This document shows, piece by piece, positions 2 through 10,952 of a stretch of 64,000 nt of DNA. The DNA is from Gammaproteobacteria bacterium TMED78 (GTDB lineage: Bacteria > Pseudomonadota > Gammaproteobacteria > Steroidobacterales > Rariloculaceae), in NCBI GenBank assembly GCA_002171615.1, contig NHEF01000005.1, forward strand, positions 983 to 64,982, in the 5' to 3' direction. A model generated the notes under the pieces. The model ran no database searches and had not been told where the DNA came from. It was given only the letters and a program-made list of their open reading frames with translations. Every line of letters begins with the position of its first letter. The first letter of the stretch is position 1. Made by a program: the position numbers and the translations under genes.

Positions 2-1042
2 GGTAATGGATTTAAAGACGCTAATAACAGAGAGAGCGGTCCGAGTTGTCGTACTATTCCTATCAGCTGTAGAAACACGGCTATGGATCCTACTTCAGCT
101 TTCCCATACTTAATTATGGTAGCTGCTTCAAATGCTTTGGGCTCTAGGGCATCGTATTCTAACTCTGGTTCTGCAAATTGGGTAACTGCACCAGGAGGAG
201 AGTATGGATTTCATCCTGATTATATAAGTTCATCCACTGCTTCTCGTTATCAGCCTGGAATGATGACAACTGATCAGTCAACCTGCTCTAAGGGCTATAC
301 AACATACACACAGACTAATGCCTTTGAGGAAAATCATCCTGATAATTCTAATTGTAACTATACATCTAGGTTTAATGGTACATCGTCAGCTGCACCAGTT
401 CTGTCTGGGGTAATAGCATTGATGTTAGAAGCTAATCCAAATCTTTCGTGGAGAGATATCAAACATATATTGGCAACAACTTCAGTACAAATAGATCCAA
501 ATGTTCAAGACACCATTGTTAGTATTGATGGTGTAAACTATATTGCTGAGCCTTCTTGGTCAACAAATGCGGCTGGTTATAAATTTCATAATTGGTTCGG
601 TTTTGGAAGGGTAGATGCCTATGCTGCCGTAGTAGCTGCTAAAAGCTATGTTTCTGGAAGTCTTGGTGCTTTTGATTATACAAATAAGATAAATCAAACA
701 CTTGACATCTCGATTCCAGATAATTCTATTACTGGATCAACTATAGATATTTTGATAACTGATAATTTGGTCATTGAGTCTGTCCAATTGGAAGTAAGTA
801 TTACACACCCATCTATCGGGGAGCTAGGCATAGAGCTAATTTCTCCATCCGGAACTCGTTCTGTATTGTTTAATATAAGAAATTCTTTTTACGATGAAAG
901 TGATTTTAATAATTTTAAAATTACCAGTAATGCTTTCTACGGAGAAAATATTACTGGTACTTGGAAGTGTAAAGTTGTAGATTCTCTTATTGGAAATACA
1001 GGTACATTAAATTCATGCGGTCTTAAATTTTATGGTCATTAA
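2..1042 (+). CDS. S8 subtilisin-like serine peptidase with C-terminal P (proprotein-convertase-type) domain; 5' end outside the window
   Basis: The frame is open from base 2, with no stop before the ATG at 83. NGTSSAAPVLSGVIALMLEANP matches the subtilase catalytic-Ser motif. The C-terminal ~100 aa (SVQLEVSITHPSIGELGIELISPSGT...GTWKCKVVD) looks like a P/Homo-B domain. Confidence 0.8.
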   Translation, partial: GNGFKDANNRESGPSCRTIPISCRNTAMDPTSAFPYLIMVAASNALGSRASYSNSGSANWVTAPGGEYGFHPDYISSSTASRYQPGMMTTDQSTCSKGYTTYTQTNAFEENHPDNSNCNYTSRFNGTSSAAPVLSGVIALMLEANPNLSWRDIKHILATTSVQIDPNVQDTIVSIDGVNYIAEPSWSTNAAGYKFHNWFGFGRVDAYAAVVAAKSYVSGSLGAFDYTNKINQTLDISIPDNSITGSTIDILITDNLVIESVQLEVSITHPSIGELGIELISPSGTRSVLFNIRNSFYDESDFNNFKITSNAFYGENITGTWKCKVVDSLIGNTGTLNSCGLKFYGH

Positions 1043-1643
1043 TAAAAGTCTTTTTAGCTATATTATTATACCTCTGGCATCACTTGCTTTTGTCCTCTCT
1101 CTCTACCACCAAGCTTCTGGAAGCTCTTTTGGATCTTACGATAAAGATTTAATTCAATCTTTAGCTATTGGCCCTATAATTAATTCAGAATCAAGTTCTT
1201 ATAAATTAATTCCAAATAGTAGTGTTTCTTCAATTTTTGATCCAGATGGCCATAGACATGAAAATTATATAGCTAATGATAGTGACGGTATTATTTGGGC
1301 AATGGATATAGAGTCATTTCATTTATCTATTAGATCAAAGTCTATTGAGTATTTAGACCATCGTGTTTTTCCTAATTACCAATTAGCACTAAACCAGGAA
1401 AGAGATAGTATTGCTATTGTAACTGGTGAGATTATAGCTTCTCTTTTAGAAGGTTTTGATGCTGATGTAATTGCTAGTAATTATGATTTAGAATTAAAAG
1501 CTTATTATGATCATAGTAATACAGCTTTTTTTACTATTAAAAATTCATCAGAGCTTTTAGAAAAGCTTAATTTATTGAAACAAGATATTGGAATTGATGT
1601 TGCATATATTGATGTTATTGATTCGATAAATATTCCATATTAA
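1032..1643 (+). CDS. Hypothetical exported or membrane-anchored protein; C-terminus resembles a subtilase I9 propeptide/inhibitor fold
   Basis: The ATG overlaps the peptidase stop (ATGGTCATTAA). It has an N-terminal hydrophobic segment. The C-terminus (DVIASNYDLELKAYYDHSNTAFFTIKNSSELLEKLNLLKQDIGIDVAYIDVID) parallels the subtilisin propeptide pattern (...[25 protein letters not shown]). Confidence 0.5.
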   Translation: MVINKSLFSYIIIPLASLAFVLSLYHQASGSSFGSYDKDLIQSLAIGPIINSESSSYKLIPNSSVSSIFDPDGHRHENYIANDSDGIIWAMDIESFHLSIRSKSIEYLDHRVFPNYQLALNQERDSIAIVTGEIIASLLEGFDADVIASNYDLELKAYYDHSNTAFFTIKNSSELLEKLNLLKQDIGIDVAYIDVIDSINIPY

Positions 1644-1775: not shown

Positions 1776-2483
1776 ATGTTTATTAGATTTACGCTATTTG
1801 TATCAATTTTCGCCTTTTTCTCTCTTAGTGTGGCTCAGGCAAGGTTATCTTTACCAAAGGAGCATGTTTCTGTTTATAACGTTGTAATCAGTAATGTAGA
1901 TGCAGCTACAAAGGCTAGTCTTGAGGCTAAGAAAGCAGAAGTAACTAAATTAAAAGCAGATATTAAGGCTTATAAAGATGCTGGTGATAATACTTCAGCT
2001 AAGGCATCTGCAAAAACTCTTAGATCTAAACAGCGTGATTTAGATAAGAACTTACGAGCTGCTATAAAAAGTGATGTTTCTCTTCAAGGTACAATAGCTG
2101 CAGAGAAAAGAACTGCTAAAGCTGCAGGTAAGCAAGCAAAAGGAACAAAAGCTAAGCAAACTATGAACAAGATCCTAGCCGTTGCTTCATCAACCCAGTC
2201 TTCCACCATAGAGTCTAATAAAACATCTATGGCTTCTATCTTGCTTGATATTAAGACTGCTCGACAAGCTGGCGCAACCAAGGCAGATACAAAATCACTA
2301 AATGATCAGCTCAAAGCGCTTCATATACAACAAAAGGCAACAATTAAAGAGATTATAGACTCTAATGCTGATCTCAAAGCTACCTTAAAAGCAGATGCAA
2401 AAAAGCAAGCAAGAAAAGCAGCTAAGGGAAAGAGAAATAATAAAAGTAGAAATACTAAACAGCCCCGAAGCCAGTCAAGCTAA
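1776..2483 (+). CDS. Secreted Lys/Ala-rich, probably coiled-coil protein of unknown function
   Basis: AGGAG-like RBS (aaaggag) upstream and a signal peptide (MFIRFTLFVSIFAFFSLSVAQA). The two halves of the protein look like an internal duplication. A terminator hairpin follows. Confidence 0.6.
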   Translation: MFIRFTLFVSIFAFFSLSVAQARLSLPKEHVSVYNVVISNVDAATKASLEAKKAEVTKLKADIKAYKDAGDNTSAKASAKTLRSKQRDLDKNLRAAIKSDVSLQGTIAAEKRTAKAAGKQAKGTKAKQTMNKILAVASSTQSSTIESNKTSMASILLDIKTARQAGATKADTKSLNDQLKALHIQQKATIKEIIDSNADLKATLKADAKKQARKAAKGKRNNKSRNTKQPRSQSS

Positions 2484-2510
2484 GATTTATATTTTTTTAT
2501 ATCTAACAAA

Positions 2511-2542
2511 GCCACCCATATATTTATTGGGTGGTTTTTTTT
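2511..2542 (+). terminator. Rho-independent terminator after the Lys/Ala-rich protein gene
   Basis: Hairpin CCACCCA-tatatttat-TGGGTGG followed by T8. Confidence 0.65.
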
Positions 2543-2557
2543 AGCTTAAAGATATAG

Positions 2558-3922
2558 ATGAAATTAAGTTTTAATAAATATTTTTTACAGATAGTCTTTT
2601 TATTGTTATGGGCTAATAAATGCTTTGCTGTAAGTTATGATTCCGCCTCAGAGTTATTTTTATCAGGAGATTATCTTTCTGCACTAAAAGAATTTAATCA
2701 GCTACATAATCAACAGCCTGATAATGTTAATTTTATTTATGGCCTTGGATTAATTCACTACGCTCTAGATCAAGATAGTGAGGCTCTAAGTTATTTATCT
2801 TTATTATCCGATTCTGAGTATACATACATAGCAAGGTATTATATTTCTATGATTGCCTTAAGAAATGATCAAATTGAGTTTGCTATAGATGAATTGGAAC
2901 AACTAGCAGATCAAATAGAAGATATAGAAGTAAGCGAATTAGCAAATGAATCATTATTGGAAATCAATTTTGATAGTTTTTATAGTATTGATTTTGGCGA
3001 TGCAAACGATGATGGTAATTATGTGTTCATAGAACTTGGCCTTAATATTCAAGATGGAATAATCGACCCTAATGGTTTAGTTGGCTCTAATCAAAATGAT
3101 AGTGCAAAGGAAATTATTTTAGCTGGTTCTTTTAATGCATTTAGTTTTGAAAATTCTGATATTAATTTTGGTGGTTCGTACTTTAATGAAGGATATTCAC
3201 AATATGAAAGTTATGATATATCAGCTACAACAATTTTTATTGAGCAAGAGGGAGTTTTTAAACAAGATTGGCTGAGCTCACATTATTGGCGTATAAATTT
3301 ATCAGGCAGTCAGATATGGTTAGCTGAAAAAAAATATCTTGATCAGTTAGAAGTTAGCTTTTTTGATGAATTTTATTTTAAAGATGATTTAATTTTAGGC
3401 TTAGAATTAAATTATCAAAATTCAGTCAATGGCGATTCTAATTTTTATAGATATGCAGGAAATTCAAAAATGATTGGTTTTTCTCTCCAGAACCTTAGTC
3501 ATTTAAGTTGGCTCTTAGAATATTCATATCATATAAAAAATAGCAATGATTATAACTCTATAGAGATTAATGATAGCTTAACTATATTAGATGTTTTTAC
3601 TAGCTATTCTGGTGATACACATTTTTTTTCTACAGAGGTTAATTTTCAGATTAATAATAATTGGCACTCCTCTATGGGGGCTTCATTCGAAAAAATATTA
3701 TATAAAGATCCAGATTTATATTTATACAATACTTCTGATTCTTTGCTTACTACTGCTTACAGAGAAACAAAATTATCCCAGTTTAATCTAGAGCTGGTTA
3801 GAAATTTTTCTAATAGTGCCTTTTTAACACTTGGCTATGAACATATTCATAATAATTCAAATATCGATTTTTTTGATTTTAATAGTAATATATTCAGAAT
3901 ATCAGTGAGTTATCTTTTTTAA
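2558..3922 (+). CDS. Outer-membrane protein with N-terminal TPR region and C-terminal beta-barrel; Slam/DUF560-like (type XI secretion) translocon candidate
   Basis: Signal peptide (...LLWANKCFA). TPR-like helices occupy about aa 30-130. After that come long alternating-hydrophobic beta-strand stretches. It ends in the OMP signature RISVSYLF. A TbpB-fold lipoprotein gene lies immediately downstream. Confidence 0.55.
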   Translation: MKLSFNKYFLQIVFLLLWANKCFAVSYDSASELFLSGDYLSALKEFNQLHNQQPDNVNFIYGLGLIHYALDQDSEALSYLSLLSDSEYTYIARYYISMIALRNDQIEFAIDELEQLADQIEDIEVSELANESLLEINFDSFYSIDFGDANDDGNYVFIELGLNIQDGIIDPNGLVGSNQNDSAKEIILAGSFNAFSFENSDINFGGSYFNEGYSQYESYDISATTIFIEQEGVFKQDWLSSHYWRINLSGSQIWLAEKKYLDQLEVSFFDEFYFKDDLILGLELNYQNSVNGDSNFYRYAGNSKMIGFSLQNLSHLSWLLEYSYHIKNSNDYNSIEINDSLTILDVFTSYSGDTHFFSTEVNFQINNNWHSSMGASFEKILYKDPDLYLYNTSDSLLTTAYRETKLSQFNLELVRNFSNSAFLTLGYEHIHNNSNIDFFDFNSNIFRISVSYLF

Positions 3923-3941
3923 CCATTTCTTAAGCTAAGCA

Positions 3942-5036
3942 ATGAGCTATAACAAATACTATTTTTTTCTATCCTATTTATTAATTACTGCGTGTGGAGG
4001 AGGTAGTGGTTCTCCTACTATGGTTGTGCCGACAGAAGCTATCTATAATTACAATAAGAATACTGCTATAGAGGAAAATGGTGGGGAGTATGACGTATTA
4101 GCAGGAGTTATGAGTTATAGAACTTATCCTGAAACAGGAGAGATGTGGGTATCTACAGGAGACGCCTCTGTCCAGATGTCTTTTACAATTAATGGAACTA
4201 AATCACTATCTTTAAGTCGTGACTATTCTTTTCTTCCAGATCAAGGAACTACCAATTTAGATATGGGAATGGAATTTGAACAAACGTTATTACCAGGCAC
4301 AGTAAATTTTGATGTTGGAAATAATTTAGATAGCTACCTTTTTTGGGAGTCTGACTGGGGGATATCAACCGACCCTTCAGGTAATAGTTATGAATGGAAT
4401 TATAGATCCTTTAGTTTCTATACTGATGTTATCTTTGATTTTTTAGGAACTGAATATGTAAATTCTTTTATTTCAGATATTGATTATGGCGACGATTCAA
4501 CTCCACAGTTTGATCTTTGTAATGTTACAGATGACGAGTGCATTGATAGCATCAAAGATAAGGATGTTATTGCTGGAGTTTTTGGAGACTTTACCGGTAT
4601 CGGTGATATGCCCTCTTCAGGCTCCAAAACATATAACGTAAAAGCAATAGCTTTCTGGCACCCAAATAAGCTTGAATCTTTATCTAGTATACCTCACTGG
4701 CCCGCTTATGAAGGAGATTCAGTATTTACAGTTAATTTTGAATCAAATTCGATACAGGGAAATATTTTATTAGATTATGTTTTTCCTGAACAAGTAATTG
4801 CTAGTTCAACTTGGGACCATGTTTCTAATATTAGCGCTGGAACTATTACCGTATCTGGATCTATATCAAATAATCAGTTACAAGGTGTTTCTAATTGGAA
4901 TAATAATTATGGGTCTGGTGACTGTAGCGGATATTTTTTTGGCCCAAATGGTAATGAATTTGGGGGGTGGTGTTATGTTTATGATGATAGTGATGATGAT
5001 GGAGCAGAGGTATTAATCAGCTTTATTGGAACATAA
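3942..5036 (+). CDS. Surface-lipoprotein candidate with TbpB/fHbp-type C-terminal 8-stranded beta-barrel domain
   Basis: Lipobox LLITAC followed by a GGGSGS linker. The C-terminal strand pattern is MPSSGSKTYNVKA / FTVNFESNSIQGNI / ITVSGSISNNQLQG / GYFFGPNGNEFGGW / VLISFIGT. This matches the FYGPxAxExGG-type barrel of Slam-dependent lipoproteins. Confidence 0.6.
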   Translation: MSYNKYYFFLSYLLITACGGGSGSPTMVVPTEAIYNYNKNTAIEENGGEYDVLAGVMSYRTYPETGEMWVSTGDASVQMSFTINGTKSLSLSRDYSFLPDQGTTNLDMGMEFEQTLLPGTVNFDVGNNLDSYLFWESDWGISTDPSGNSYEWNYRSFSFYTDVIFDFLGTEYVNSFISDIDYGDDSTPQFDLCNVTDDECIDSIKDKDVIAGVFGDFTGIGDMPSSGSKTYNVKAIAFWHPNKLESLSSIPHWPAYEGDSVFTVNFESNSIQGNILLDYVFPEQVIASSTWDHVSNISAGTITVSGSISNNQLQGVSNWNNNYGSGDCSGYFFGPNGNEFGGWCYVYDDSDDDGAEVLISFIGT

Positions 5037-10326: not shown

Positions 10327-10387
10327 TCACTTTCAATTTATTTAATACCATCATTATATAAGTAGTTTATATGCTCCCAACTATATT

Positions 10388-10464
10388 CGGGGCGTGGCGC
10401 AGTCTGGTAGCGCACTTGGCTGGGGGTCAAGTGGTCACAAGTTCAAATCTTGTCGTCCCGACCA
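10388..10464 (+). tRNA. tRNA-Pro (anticodon GGG), CCA encoded
   Basis: Hand-folded cloverleaf. Acceptor stem CGGGGCG/CGTCCCG with one G-U pair. D arm GCGC-AGTCTGGTA-GCGC. Anticodon arm CTTGG-CTGGGGG-TCAAG. T arm ACAAG-TTCAAAT-CTTGT. Discriminator A plus CCA, followed by T8. Confidence 0.9.
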
Positions 10465-10529
10465 TTTTTTTTAACAAATATATTATTTGTAGTATATTAA
10501 AATATTATGCTAACTATAAGGAAGCAATT

Positions 10530-10952
10530 ATGAATAAGTATATTTTGTTATTATTGGTGTCATTAATTTTGATAACTGCTTGTGAGAATGAGGACAATAT
10601 ATCAGATAATAGTTTACTGACCCAAGCTGAGGCTGTTATAGATAACTTCCCTGATCCTTATACTTTTATAGATTCACTTAATACACCTATTAACACTTTG
10701 GTTGAATCTGAGCCAATATTGGTATCAGGAATTAATGCTCCTGTTTTAATTGATATTATTGGCGGTTCTTATAGTATTGATGGAGGGGCTTTTACAAGCC
10801 AACCTGGGCAAGTTGAGTCTGGTCAGTCAGTTGTTGTTAGTCATACAAGCTCCAGTGAAAATGGCGATGTAACGAGTACATTTTTAACTATAGGCGGATA
10901 TACAGATAATTTTTCTTCTCTAACAGAAGTGGAAATTAGCGATAATGAGTAA
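10530..10952 (+). CDS. Small lipoprotein of unknown function
   Basis: ATG at 10530 is preceded by AAGGAAG. Lipobox LILITAC. The longer ORF-track start at 10371 would run through the tRNA. The 3' end overlaps the ilvD start by 8 nt. Confidence 0.6.

What the first reader, a model, noticed from the sequence alone, without database searches (positions are those of the whole stretch)
2558..5036. Slam/DUF560-type (type XI secretion) outer-membrane translocon with an adjacent TbpB-fold surface lipoprotein of unknown ligand
The product of 2558..3922 has three parts: a signal peptide, about 100 aa of TPR-like helices, and about 330 aa of beta-barrel-like sequence ending in ...RISVSYLF. This is the architecture of Slam proteins (Hooda et al. 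2016), later called the type XI secretion system. Twenty nucleotides downstream lies a lipoprotein gene with lipobox LITAC and a GGGSGS tether. Its last ~150 aa reproduce the strand pattern of the TbpB/LbpB/fHbp/HpuA 8-stranded barrel, which is the Slam targeting domain: MPSSGSKTYNVKA, FTVNFESNSIQGNI, ITVSGSISNNQLQG, GYFFGPNGNEFGGW, VLISFIGT. The N-terminal ~200-aa domain is acidic and W/Y/G/N-rich, and I do not recognise it as any characterised ligand-binding lobe. Characterised cargos bind host transferrin, haem or complement factors. The cargo function in a free-living, AT-rich gammaproteobacterium is unknown; metal, haem, cofactor or polymer capture are possibilities. The pair sits within a block of other exported proteins.
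Basis: partly seen in the sequence, partly recalled or inferred. Interest (0 to 1): 0.72.

Follow-up and report, generated by a model that had tools for sequence, protein, structure and literature searches.

The report
Divergent Slam-like translocon with lipoprotein cargo
An uncultured marine gammaproteobacterium carries a distant relative of the Slam (type 11 secretion) outer-membrane translocon next to a TbpB-fold lipoprotein it probably displays on the cell surface, plus a previously unnoticed third gene that always accompanies the translocon.

Summary

- **Lipoprotein (3942..5036).** It has a lipobox (ITAC, Cys18) and a Gly/Ser tether. Its C-terminal domain passes Pfam TbpB_B_D (44.5 bits against a cut-off of 26). 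The model matches only TbpB, LbpB, NHBA, hemophilin and fHbp structures.
- **OMP (2558..3922).** AlphaFold2 (pLDDT 92) gives a signal peptide, seven TPR-like helices and a 14-strand barrel. The protein itself does not hit Pfam DUF560/SlipAM.
- **Link to DUF560.** The link is remote and transitive. The consensus of the OMP's clade scores 20.2 bits (cut-off 22) over nearly the whole model. A sister clade scores 33.6 bits and aligns to the window's clade with hhalign probability 100%.
- **Synteny.** The OMP-lipoprotein pair is kept in every related locus complete enough to judge, across three unrelated genomic contexts.
- **New here.** The upstream gene (1776..2483) encodes a Sec-exported, helical, highly charged orphan protein. 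It precedes every group-A OMP whose upstream flank is on the contig, including distant ones that lack the lipoprotein. A terminator-like hairpin, conserved in structure but not in sequence, separates it from the OMP gene.
- **Charge.** This protein is basic (+25 to +30) only where the acidic lipoprotein (about -40) is present.
- **Open.** The cargo's ligand remains unknown.

I read this as a divergent three-gene variant of a known system.

The parts
1776..2483 (+). 'up' gene. It encodes a 235-aa Sec-exported (SPI, ...SVAQA|RLSLPK), Cys-free, Ala/Lys-rich protein. It has two helical repeats of about 80 aa and a basic tail. The mature protein has net charge +27 and pI 10.3. It is an orphan family.
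   Evidence: Found directly upstream of every group-A OMP gene whose upstream flank is on the contig (21 loci plus the window), including OMPs only about 25% identical. No significant Pfam, NCBIfam or PDB match. The weak hits are Metal_resist (0.011) and OmpH (0.017), each in 3 of 10 members.
2508..2542 (+). Intrinsic-terminator-like hairpin (AAAGCCACCCA, 9-nt loop, TGGGTGGTTTT, inside a run of eight T) between the 'up' gene and the OMP gene.
   Evidence: Sequence and folding (-21.3 kcal/mol for the intergenic stretch). A GC-rich hairpin sits at this position in all 13 lineages checked, mostly followed by a T-run. The stem sequences differ between clades. The consensus scan missed it because the loop exceeds 8 nt.
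2558..2629 (+). OMP signal peptide (aa 1-24, ...ANKCFA|VSYD).
   Evidence: Read from the sequence. The model shows helix 5-19 at low pLDDT.
2630..2983 (+). Periplasmic TPR-like domain of the OMP (aa 25-142, seven helices).
   Evidence: Pfam TPR_19 E 7.9e-6, 26.6 bits, above the cut-off of 25. AF2 helices at 27-35, 39-52, 57-69, 73-81, 89-102, 106-118 and 123-142, pLDDT mostly above 90. TPR_Slam PF24575 gives weak hits in 9 of 57 relatives.
3020..3922 (+). C-terminal 14-strand beta-barrel of the OMP (aa 155-454). It ends in the beta-signal-like ...RISVSYLF, followed by the stop codon.
   Evidence: AF2 with a 57-sequence alignment, mean pLDDT 92. Best target-normalised Foldseek matches are 14-strand barrels: OmpG TM 0.62-0.67, then CymA and FadL. 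The clade consensus hits Pfam SlipAM positions 58-286 of 288 at 20.2 bits against a cut-off of 22. hhalign to the SlipAM-positive sister clade gives 100% probability, E 8e-48.
3942..3995 (+). Lipoprotein signal peptide with lipobox I-T-A-C (Cys18). It is followed by a GGGSGS tether, and residue +2 is Gly.
   Evidence: Read from the sequence. The lipobox Cys and a poly-Gly tether are present in all full-length homologues.
3996..4586 (+). N-terminal all-beta, acidic effector/handle domain of unknown ligand (about aa 19-215). It carries a conserved D-x-D-Y-G-D-D motif, a Cys193/Cys200 pair and a D202/D206/D208 cluster.
   Evidence: Conserved columns. AF2 predicts about 10 strands but pLDDT is below 50. 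No Pfam or PDB sequence match covers this part.
4587..5036 (+). C-terminal TbpB-type 8-strand barrel (about aa 216-364), the presumed T11SS targeting domain, plus the stop codon.
   Evidence: Pfam TbpB_B_D E 2.7e-11. NF041636 E 3e-12. AF2 strands with pLDDT 70-89. Foldseek top 34 hits are all SLP or hemophilin structures. The family profile hits the TbpB C-lobe and N-lobe barrels.

Best explanation
Genes 1776..5036 form a three-gene envelope module of the type 11 (Slam-like) secretion kind.

Proposed pathway:
1. The lipoprotein (3942..5036) is exported by Sec and lipidated at Cys18.
2. It is kept unfolded in the periplasm.
3. It is passed through the outer membrane by the product of 2558..3922, a 14-strand barrel with a periplasmic TPR domain. 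The barrel recognises the lipoprotein's C-terminal TbpB-type 8-strand barrel.
4. The cargo then sits on the cell surface on its lipid anchor and Gly/Ser tether. It presents an acidic all-beta N-terminal domain that binds an extracellular ligand. My guess is a cation or metal-containing nutrient, because of the net charge of -40 and the DxDYGDD / Cys-Cys / Asp cluster.

The upstream gene product is most likely a periplasmic accessory, a holdase or adaptor playing the role Skp plays for Neisseria Slam1. It is made in excess of the other two proteins because a terminator-like hairpin follows its gene.

Shown: the architecture of both proteins, the remote homology of the OMP to DUF560, the TbpB-barrel homology of the cargo, the strict synteny, the hairpin and the charge pattern.

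Inferred: translocation itself, surface exposure, the role of 'up', and the ligand.
For: **Cargo**
- Lipobox and tether.
- TbpB_B_D above Pfam's cut-off.
- slam_lipo NF041636 E 3e-12.
- Family profile against the TbpB barrels, E 2.8e-7.
- Foldseek top 34 hits come exclusively from the Slam-dependent SLP / hemophilin family.

**OMP**
- AF2 pLDDT 92, TPR plus 14 strands. This is the architecture that defines Slams (PMC5449769; PMC8406197).
- The relative P0047 passes SlipAM (24.6 bits against 22) and matches the window family profile full-length at E 4.8e-9.
- The group-B consensus scores SlipAM 33.6 bits. The group-A consensus scores 20.2 bits over positions 58-286 of 288.
- Group A against group B by hhalign: probability 100%, E 8e-48.

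**Linkage**
- OMP and lipoprotein are adjacent, 0-19 nt apart or overlapping, in all 14 loci with an OMP at least 36% identical (L001-L007, L015-L020 and the window).
- Only the three-gene block is shared between three different flanking contexts.

**'up'**
- Always upstream.
- Basic only where the acidic cargo exists.
- Skp is a required holdase for Slam1 (PMC9090332).
Against: - The window OMP itself has no PF04575 hit, and its clade consensus stays just under the curated cut-off.
- Generic barrel families (OMP_b-brl, BBP2_2, MtrB_PioB, DUF6850) score similarly, although mostly over shorter stretches.
- No Slam structure was among the PDB library's matches, so the fold match is only to generic 14-strand barrels. 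The top hit by E-value is BcsC, which is TPR plus a 16-strand barrel.
- Distant members of the same OMP clade (about 25% identity) have 'up' but no adjacent TbpB-fold lipoprotein. The OMP family therefore does not need this cargo.
- NF041636 is below its cut-off.
- The N-terminal domain model is unreliable.
- No TonB-dependent receptor or other uptake gene is linked. A nutrient-capture role has no support from context.
- The 'up' similarity to OmpH or Metal_resist is at noise level.
Confidence: 0.7

Rival explanations
1. The OMP's primary and ancestral client is the upstream helical charged protein. That protein is exported to the surface or medium, or assembled there. The TbpB-fold lipoprotein is a later addition in one clade and may or may not use the same pore. 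In that case this is a T11SS-like exporter for an alpha-helical cargo that lacks the canonical 8-strand barrel.
For: - The 'up'-OMP pairing is conserved much more deeply than the OMP-lipoprotein pairing.
- A terminator or attenuator hairpin after 'up' in every lineage implies 'up' is made in excess. This resembles major-subunit genes placed ahead of their outer-membrane exporters (the analogy is my inference).
- Group-B relatives also have a small, charged, secreted protein gene directly upstream of the OMP (L013, L014).
Against: - All verified T11SS cargo carry the C-terminal beta-barrel (PMC5449769; Grossman 2025), and 'up' has none.
- The charge of 'up' flips from about -25 to about +28 exactly in the clade with the -40 cargo. 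That fits a partner of the cargo better than an independent cargo.
- Abundant expression is equally expected of a periplasmic holdase.
Confidence: 0.17
2. The OMP is not a protein translocon but a TPR-barrel exporter or porin for a polymer or small solute, of the BBP2_2/TIGR03016/EpsL, PgaA or BcsC kind. The lipoprotein is merely a co-transcribed envelope protein.
For: - The top Foldseek hit by E-value is BcsC.
- 27 of 57 relatives hit BBP2_2, 26 of 57 hit TIGR03016 and 9 of 57 hit EpsL.
- Grossman 2021 notes that PgaA-like proteins fall under PF04575.
Against: - The BBP2_2 hits cover only the last 50-100 residues. SlipAM covers about 230 of 288 model positions.
- The barrel has 14 strands, not 16.
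- No glycosyltransferase, polymerase or Wza-type gene belongs to the conserved block in any of the three contexts.
- The window protein itself has no hit to these families.
- A TbpB-barrel lipoprotein gene overlapping or within 19 nt of the OMP gene in 14 loci is the hallmark of Slam pairs.
Confidence: 0.08
3. The adjacency is incidental: two unrelated envelope genes that happen to be neighbours.
For: None beyond the lack of experimental data.
Against: The block is retained through three independent relocations and down to 36% OMP identity. The intergenic gap is 19 nt with no terminator.
Confidence: 0.03

Closest known systems
Slam1/Slam2 of Neisseria, and T11SS OMPs NilB, HrpB and TepS (DUF560, Pfam PF04575 SlipAM plus PF24575 TPR_Slam)
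   Same: - A periplasmic N-terminal TPR domain of about 120-140 aa, followed by a 14-strand C-terminal barrel.
- The gene sits next to a lipobox protein that ends in an 8-strand TbpB-type barrel.
- There is remote but traceable sequence homology.
   Different: - The window protein is below Pfam's PF04575 threshold, with no individual hit and a clade consensus of 20.2 bits against 22. A DUF560-based census would be expected to miss it.
- It is invariably preceded by an orphan helical secreted-protein gene and a terminator-like hairpin. I did not find this described for T11SS in the papers I read.
- The host is an uncultured pelagic marine gammaproteobacterium. No TonB-dependent receptor, haem or iron genes are linked.
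Slam-dependent surface lipoproteins and T11SS cargo (TbpB, LbpB, fHbp, HpuA, NHBA, hemophilin/HphA, NilC, PmSLP)
   Same: - Lipobox plus flexible tether.
- A variable N-terminal beta-rich effector or handle.
- A C-terminal 8-strand barrel (PF01298).
- Single-lobe size, like HpuA, fHbp and HphA.
   Different: - The N-terminal domain of about 195 aa has no detectable relative outside its own small family: 11 clusters, all from metagenomes, those I traced being marine.
- It is extremely acidic (net -40).
- It has a conserved DxDYGDD / Cys-Cys / Asp motif.
- No cognate TonB-dependent receptor is adjacent.
Marine 'cluster 3' T11SS of Rhodobacteraceae/Roseobacteraceae (Grossman et al. 2025)
   Same: Marine hosts. 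The OMP is sometimes paired with a lipoprotein of 282-375 aa that has a C-terminal 8-strand barrel.
   Different: - Cluster 3 is alphaproteobacterial and annotated as DUF560.
- It is linked to DUF1194/vWA, thymidylate synthase and glyoxalase genes. None of these is present here.
Skp (OmpH), and Spy/CpxP/ZraP periplasmic chaperones, as analogues for the 'up' protein
   Same: Sec-exported, Cys-free, helical and highly charged. Skp is basic and is required as a holdase for Slam1-mediated TbpB translocation.
   Different: - No significant sequence similarity: best E 0.017 and 0.011, in 3 of 10 members only.
- 'up' is longer (about 214 aa mature) and is an internal two-fold repeat.
- It is acidic in the clades that lack the lipoprotein.

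Membership tests
T11SS OMP / Slam (DUF560, PF04575) | The protein itself scores at or above the Pfam PF04575 (SlipAM) gathering threshold of 22 bits. | tested here: not met
   There is no SlipAM hit at E<=10 for the window OMP or its three closest relatives. Within group A only P0018 hits, at 14.7 bits and E 0.022.
T11SS OMP / Slam (DUF560, PF04575) | Profile-level homology of the barrel to PF04575. | tested here: inconclusive
   - Group-A consensus: SlipAM 20.2 bits, E 4.7e-4, over positions 58-286 of 288.
- Group-B consensus: 33.6 bits, E 3.9e-8.
- P0047: 24.6 bits.
- Group A against group B by hhalign: 100%, E 8e-48.
The link is transitive rather than direct. A true HMM-HMM search against Pfam could not be run.
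T11SS OMP / Slam (DUF560, PF04575) | A periplasmic N-terminal domain of about 140 aa containing tetratricopeptide repeats. | tested here: met
   TPR_19 is above its cut-off. AF2 shows seven helices at 27-142 with pLDDT above 90. The feature is defined in PMC8406197 and PMC5449769.
T11SS OMP / Slam (DUF560, PF04575) | A 14-stranded C-terminal beta-barrel. | tested here: met
   The AF2 DSSP output gives 14 membrane-length strands between 155 and 453. The short pieces 332-337 and 343-348 are read as continuations of strands 9 and 10. The best target-normalised TM-scores are to the 14-strand barrels OmpG, CymA and FadL. This is a prediction, not an experimental structure.
T11SS OMP / Slam (DUF560, PF04575) | A neighbouring gene encodes a Sec- or lipobox-dependent protein with a C-terminal 8-strand barrel (the cargo). 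| tested here: met
   Shown. The arrangement is conserved in 14 loci.
T11SS OMP / Slam (DUF560, PF04575) | The OMP is necessary and sufficient for surface display or secretion of the cargo. | not testable with these tools
   This needs co-expression followed by protease shaving or flow cytometry.
Slam-dependent surface lipoprotein / T11SS cargo (PF01298 TbpB_B_D; NCBIfam NF041636) | An N-terminal signal peptide with a lipobox Cys. | tested here: met
   The N-terminus reads MSYNKYYFFLSYLLITAC-GGGSGS. The Cys is present in all full-length homologues.
Slam-dependent surface lipoprotein / T11SS cargo (PF01298 TbpB_B_D; NCBIfam NF041636) | A C-terminal TbpB-type 8-strand barrel (Pfam PF01298 at or above its cut-off). 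| tested here: met
   The score is 44.5 bits against a cut-off of 26. The model has 8 strands between 228 and 363 with pLDDT 70-89. Foldseek and PDB profile hits support the fold.
Slam-dependent surface lipoprotein / T11SS cargo (PF01298 TbpB_B_D; NCBIfam NF041636) | NCBIfam NF041636 'Slam-dependent surface lipoprotein' at or above its cut-off of 80 bits. | tested here: not met
   The score is 47.1 bits, E 3e-12, covering model positions 38-149 of 154. It is homologous but outside the equivalog.
Slam-dependent surface lipoprotein / T11SS cargo (PF01298 TbpB_B_D; NCBIfam NF041636) | A beta-rich handle or effector domain preceding the barrel. | tested here: inconclusive
   About 10 strands are predicted, but pLDDT is below 50. 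The LbpB N-lobe aligns over 261 columns at a TM-score of only 0.34-0.41.
TbpB/LbpB bipartite receptor proper | A two-lobed lipoprotein encoded next to a TonB-dependent receptor (TbpA/LbpA). | tested here: not met
   The protein has a single lobe of 364 aa. None of the neighbouring genes I inspected in the three contexts is a TonB-dependent receptor.
BBP2_2 (PF10082) / TIGR03016 / EpsL exopolysaccharide-associated OMPs | A full-length match to the family model, together with linkage to EPS or PEP-CTERM genes. | tested here: not met
   The window OMP has no hit. Hits in relatives cover only model positions of about 270-376 of 378. No EPS genes lie in the block.
Skp/OmpH (PF03938) or Metal_resist/Spy-CpxP (PF13801), for the 'up' protein | A significant match to the family model. 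| tested here: not met
   The best E-values are 0.017 and 0.011, each in 3 of 10 members. The window protein has no such hit. NCBIfam and PDB give nothing.

The most novel reading that the evidence does not exclude
The invariably linked upstream protein is a dedicated third component of a T11SS-like system. It would be either a cargo-matched periplasmic holdase or targeting factor that docks on the TPR domain, or an alpha-helical cargo without any beta-barrel. The ancestral form of this OMP clade ('up' plus OMP, with no TbpB-fold lipoprotein) would then represent a mode of type 11 secretion not yet described. The TbpB-fold lipoprotein would have been recruited secondarily, together with a charge reversal of the helper.
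Probability: 0.3. Interest if true: 0.65.

Novelty: new variant of a known kind. Interest (0 to 1): 0.45.

Why it matters
- **Census gap.** Type 11 secretion has been catalogued almost entirely through the DUF560 annotation and studied in host-associated bacteria. This locus shows a clade of TPR plus 14-strand-barrel OMPs in abundant uncultured marine Gammaproteobacteria. It falls just under the DUF560 threshold yet carries the canonical TbpB-barrel lipoprotein next door. Existing censuses are therefore likely to undercount the system.
- **A candidate accessory factor.** The strictly linked, separately terminated gene for a charged helical secreted protein is a testable candidate for the periplasmic factor that hands cargo to the translocon. 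In Neisseria that step is known only through the general chaperone Skp.
- **A possible new binding module.** The cargo's N-terminal domain has no known relatives. It is extremely acidic and is identical across many ocean samples, so it may be a new surface binding module of ecological relevance.

Tried and rejected
- **Direct family assignment of the OMP.** Pfam, NCBIfam and PDB sequence searches found only TPR.
- **Word-indexed homologue search with the barrel-only alignment.** It returned only 4 proteins and added nothing.
- **tblastn of a SlipAM-positive relative against plasmids.** This was meant to obtain an annotated canonical Slam for direct comparison. There was no match. No bona fide Neisseria or Xenorhabdus Slam sequence was available, so the link to DUF560 rests on Pfam scans of relatives and consensus sequences.
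- **Foldseek of the OMP against the PDB.** No Slam structure appeared among the matches, only generic barrels and BcsC.
- **The 370-aa ORF next to the most divergent lipoprotein homologue (L029).** Two motifs (FPSYSGD, NSNINIY..LNYL) resemble the window OMP. HMM and hhalign scores are insignificant (probability 1.6%) and there is no Pfam hit. I do not count it as evidence.
- **Assigning 'up' to a family.** Pfam, NCBIfam and PDB profile searches all gave noise.
- **Looking for a linked TonB-dependent receptor or uptake genes.** There are none. The large neighbouring ORF in one context is a spermidine-synthase-like membrane protein by my reading of its sequence, which I did not scan.
- **Rfam on the whole window.** Only one tRNA was found.
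- **Consensus terminator scan.** It found nothing, although a hairpin is present. The scan's loop limit explains the miss.
- **Paralogues in the window.** No second copy of any of the three genes exists in the 64 kb.
- **Compositional anomaly.** None was seen for the block.


Full report
**1. Observation**

Both are on the + strand and 19 nt apart. All quoted peptides are present.

The region is AT-rich (30-35% GC), like the rest of the window. The exact lipoprotein sequence occurs on 17 contigs from many metagenomes, always in the same context. This is a real and widespread organism, not an assembly oddity.

**2. The lipoprotein**

The N-terminus reads MSYNKYYFFLSYLLITAC-GGGSGS. This is a lipobox with Cys18, Gly at +2 and a flexible tether. 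Both the Cys and a poly-Gly tether are kept in all full-length homologues.

Evidence for the C-terminal domain:
- Pfam TbpB_B_D matches residues 223-360 at E 2.7e-11 and 44.5 bits, against a curated cut-off of 26.
- NCBIfam's 'Slam-dependent surface lipoprotein' model matches at E 3e-12 but below its equivalog cut-off, 47 against 80 bits.
- A profile of the 11-member family hits the C-lobe and N-lobe barrels of TbpB in the PDB (E 2.8e-7) and NHBA.
- The AlphaFold2 model is poor overall (pLDDT 52). It is usable for residues 220-364, which form eight strands at pLDDT 70-89.
- With Foldseek, the 34 best PDB matches are all TbpB, LbpB, NHBA, HphA/hemophilin or fHbp.

The C-terminal domain is therefore a TbpB-type barrel.

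The N-terminal part of about 195 aa is beta-rich but unmodelled (pLDDT below 50). It has no relative outside the family. The mature protein carries net charge -40. It has a conserved DxDYGDD motif, a Cys193/Cys200 pair and an Asp cluster.

**3. The OMP**

On its own, the protein gives only TPR hits in Pfam, NCBIfam and the PDB. There is no DUF560/SlipAM hit. The word-indexed search found only three relatives.

An exhaustive HMMER search with their alignment found 150 proteins at E<=1e-3. Most are 420-460 aa and match over the full length. BLAST clustering of the barrel parts gives two groups:
- Group A: 12 representatives, including the window protein.
- Group B: about 41 representatives of about 430 aa.

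AlphaFold2 with 57 of these sequences gave a confident model, pLDDT 92. It shows a signal peptide, seven TPR-like helices (27-142), a disordered linker and a barrel from 155 to 453.

DSSP lists 16 strand elements. Two of them are 6-residue pieces (332-337, 343-348). I read these as continuations of the long strands 9 and 10, which gives 14 membrane strands.

The best matches by target-normalised TM-score are the 14-strand barrels OmpG (0.62-0.67), CymA and FadL. The top hit by E-value is BcsC, which is TPR plus a barrel. No Slam structure appeared among the PDB matches.

Literature definitions: Slams are an N-terminal TPR domain plus a 14-strand DUF560 barrel (PMC5449769). NilB has a periplasmic TPR domain of about 140 aa (PMC8406197).

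**4. Is it DUF560?**

- Among 57 relatives, 8 hit SlipAM (best E 1.6e-5) and 9 hit TPR_Slam. 27 hit BBP2_2.
- The BBP2_2 hits cover only the last 50-100 residues. The SlipAM hits cover about 200-230 of 288 model positions.
- P0047 passes SlipAM's threshold (24.6 against 22 bits). It matches the window family profile over residues 28-450 at E 4.8e-9.
- Scanning consensus sequences gave 33.6 bits for group B (E 3.9e-8) and 20.2 bits for group A (E 4.7e-4, model positions 58-286 of 288).
- hhalign of the group A barrel against the group B barrel gives probability 100%, E 8e-48, over 287 columns.

My conclusion is that the window OMP is a remote member of the DUF560 superfamily, sitting just outside Pfam's family boundary. 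A census based on DUF560 annotation would be expected to miss it.

**5. Neighbourhoods**

Scans of GTDB genomes and JGI metagenomes with the barrel profile, plus identity look-ups, gave about 30 loci. Local HMMs for the three proteins were run on all ORFs.

- **Loci with an OMP at least 36% identical** (L001-L007, L015-L020 and the window). All have the lipoprotein immediately downstream, overlapping or 0-19 nt away. All have the 235-aa gene immediately upstream, wherever that flank is on the contig. They sit in three unrelated contexts:
  - S8 peptidase on one side and infC-rpmI-rplT-pheST on the other;
  - an esterase on one side and csrA-alaS-recX-recA on the other;
  - a spermidine-synthase-like membrane protein on one side and a DapA-like plus a SIMPL-like gene on the other (my reading of these sequences).
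  Only the three-gene block is shared.
- **Loci with group-A OMPs of about 25% identity** (L008-L010, L021-L024 and L026, from high-GC Gammaproteobacteria including Woeseiaceae). They keep the upstream gene but have no TbpB-fold lipoprotein. Their downstream genes vary.
- **Group-B examples** (L013, and L014 from Marinobacter nitratireducens). By my reading of the sequences, they lie after an ECF sigma factor, an anti-sigma factor and a small acidic secreted protein.

The named source genomes are MAGs of uncultured Gammaproteobacteria, including Candidatus Rariloculaceae.

**6. The upstream gene ('up', 1776..2483)**

It has a Sec signal peptide (…SVAQA|RLSLPK), no Cys, two helical repeats of about 80 aa and a basic tail. 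No Pfam, NCBIfam or PDB match is significant. Weak hits to OmpH (0.017) and Metal_resist (0.011) occur in 3 of 10 members.

Two things stand out:
1. In all 13 lineages examined, the 'up'-OMP intergenic space holds a strong GC-rich hairpin, mostly followed by a T-run. The stem sequences differ between clades, so the structure is conserved but not the sequence. In the window it lies at 2508..2542.
2. 'up' is strongly basic (net +25 to +30, pI 10.3-10.9) in the lipoprotein-bearing clade, at both 33% and 49% GC. It is acidic (-10 to -27) in the clades without the lipoprotein.

The charge pattern amounts to only two evolutionary states, so the correlation is suggestive rather than proof.

Skp, a basic helical holdase, is required for Slam1-mediated TbpB translocation (PMC9090332). 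That makes a dedicated holdase or adaptor role plausible for 'up'. An alternative is that 'up' is itself the ancestral cargo.

**7. Mechanism**

Most likely (about 0.7), the lipoprotein follows this route:
1. Sec export and lipidation.
2. Periplasmic holding, possibly by 'up'.
3. Recognition of the C-terminal 8-strand barrel by the TPR/barrel OMP.
4. Translocation and surface tethering.

The cargo's ligand is unknown. Its acidity and Asp/Cys motifs make cation or metal binding my best guess. No TonB-dependent receptor or uptake gene is linked, so this guess is weak.

**8. Comparison and novelty**

T11SS/Slam pairs with TbpB-fold cargo are known and have been reported in free-living bacteria. 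Marine alphaproteobacterial cluster 3 systems have also been described, with different linked genes.

What differs here:
- an OMP clade below the DUF560 threshold;
- an orphan effector domain;
- a strictly linked third gene with its own terminator-like hairpin.

I found none of these in the T11SS papers I read. I therefore rate it a new variant of a known kind, of moderate interest.

Noticed in passing
window 2508..2542; also L001, L005, L008-L010, L015, L016, L018, L019, L022, L024, L026 between the 'up' and OMP genes: A GC-rich hairpin, mostly followed by a T-run, lies between the upstream gene and the OMP gene in every lineage. The stem sequences differ between clades, so the structure is conserved but the sequence is not. 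This suggests an attenuator that sets a high 'up':OMP expression ratio.
   Followed up: partly
window 1776..2483 and homologues in L001-L026: The 'up' protein changes from net charge about -25 (pI 4.3-4.9) to about +28 (pI 10.3-10.9). The basic form occurs exactly in the clade that has the net -40 lipoprotein, whatever the genomic GC content (33-49%).
   Followed up: partly
window 83..1042 and 1032..1643: A subtilase (S8) with a proprotein-convertase P-domain runs off the window start; it is 652-713 aa in related contigs. Its gene overlaps by 11 nt that of a 203-aa protein with a hydrophobic N-terminus and a weak ORF_2_N hit (E 1.7e-5, below the cut-off). The two genes travel together in L003, L015, L016 and L030-L033. 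They are not part of the three-gene block.
   Followed up: partly
L013:3248-6282 and L014:3484-6606 (Marinobacter nitratireducens AK21): Group-B relatives of the OMP lie in an apparent four-gene operon: ECF sigma factor, zf-HC2-type anti-sigma factor, small acidic secreted protein, barrel OMP. The L014 OMP has the TPR domain; the shorter L013 one (309 aa) shows none. The sigma and anti-sigma assignments are my reading of the sequences and were not scanned. I do not recognise this arrangement as a described system.
   Followed up: no
L029:396-2727: The most divergent lipoprotein homologue (P0014, 42% identity) has no OMP gene upstream within the 395 nt available. It is followed by a 370-aa ORF with no Pfam hit. 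That ORF shares two short motifs with the window OMP (FPSYSGD; NSNINIY...LNYL), but no significant similarity was found.
   Followed up: yes
window 3942..5036, residues about 179-208: The lipoprotein's N-terminal domain carries a conserved D-x-D-Y-G-D-D motif, a Cys193/Cys200 pair and Asp202/206/208. This resembles a Ca2+-binding, disulfide-stapled loop. The window's clade also has a second, non-conserved Cys pair in the barrel (GDCSG...GGWCY).
   Followed up: no
window 10388..10464 and about 10530..10952: A tRNA-Pro (GGG) is followed directly by a small lipoprotein gene ([18 protein letters not shown]...) with no Pfam hit. The listed ORF 10371..10952 overlaps the tRNA, so its real start is probably the internal Met.
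   Followed up: no
L020:284-1644: In one metagenome contig the orthologous OMP gene is split into two overlapping ORFs (284-1018 and 1009-1644). This is either a frameshift pseudogene or a sequencing error.
   Followed up: no
L012:114-981: An OMP-like C-terminal fragment is followed, rather than preceded, by a truncated single-repeat 'up' homologue of 136 aa. This looks like a decayed copy of the module.
   Followed up: partly
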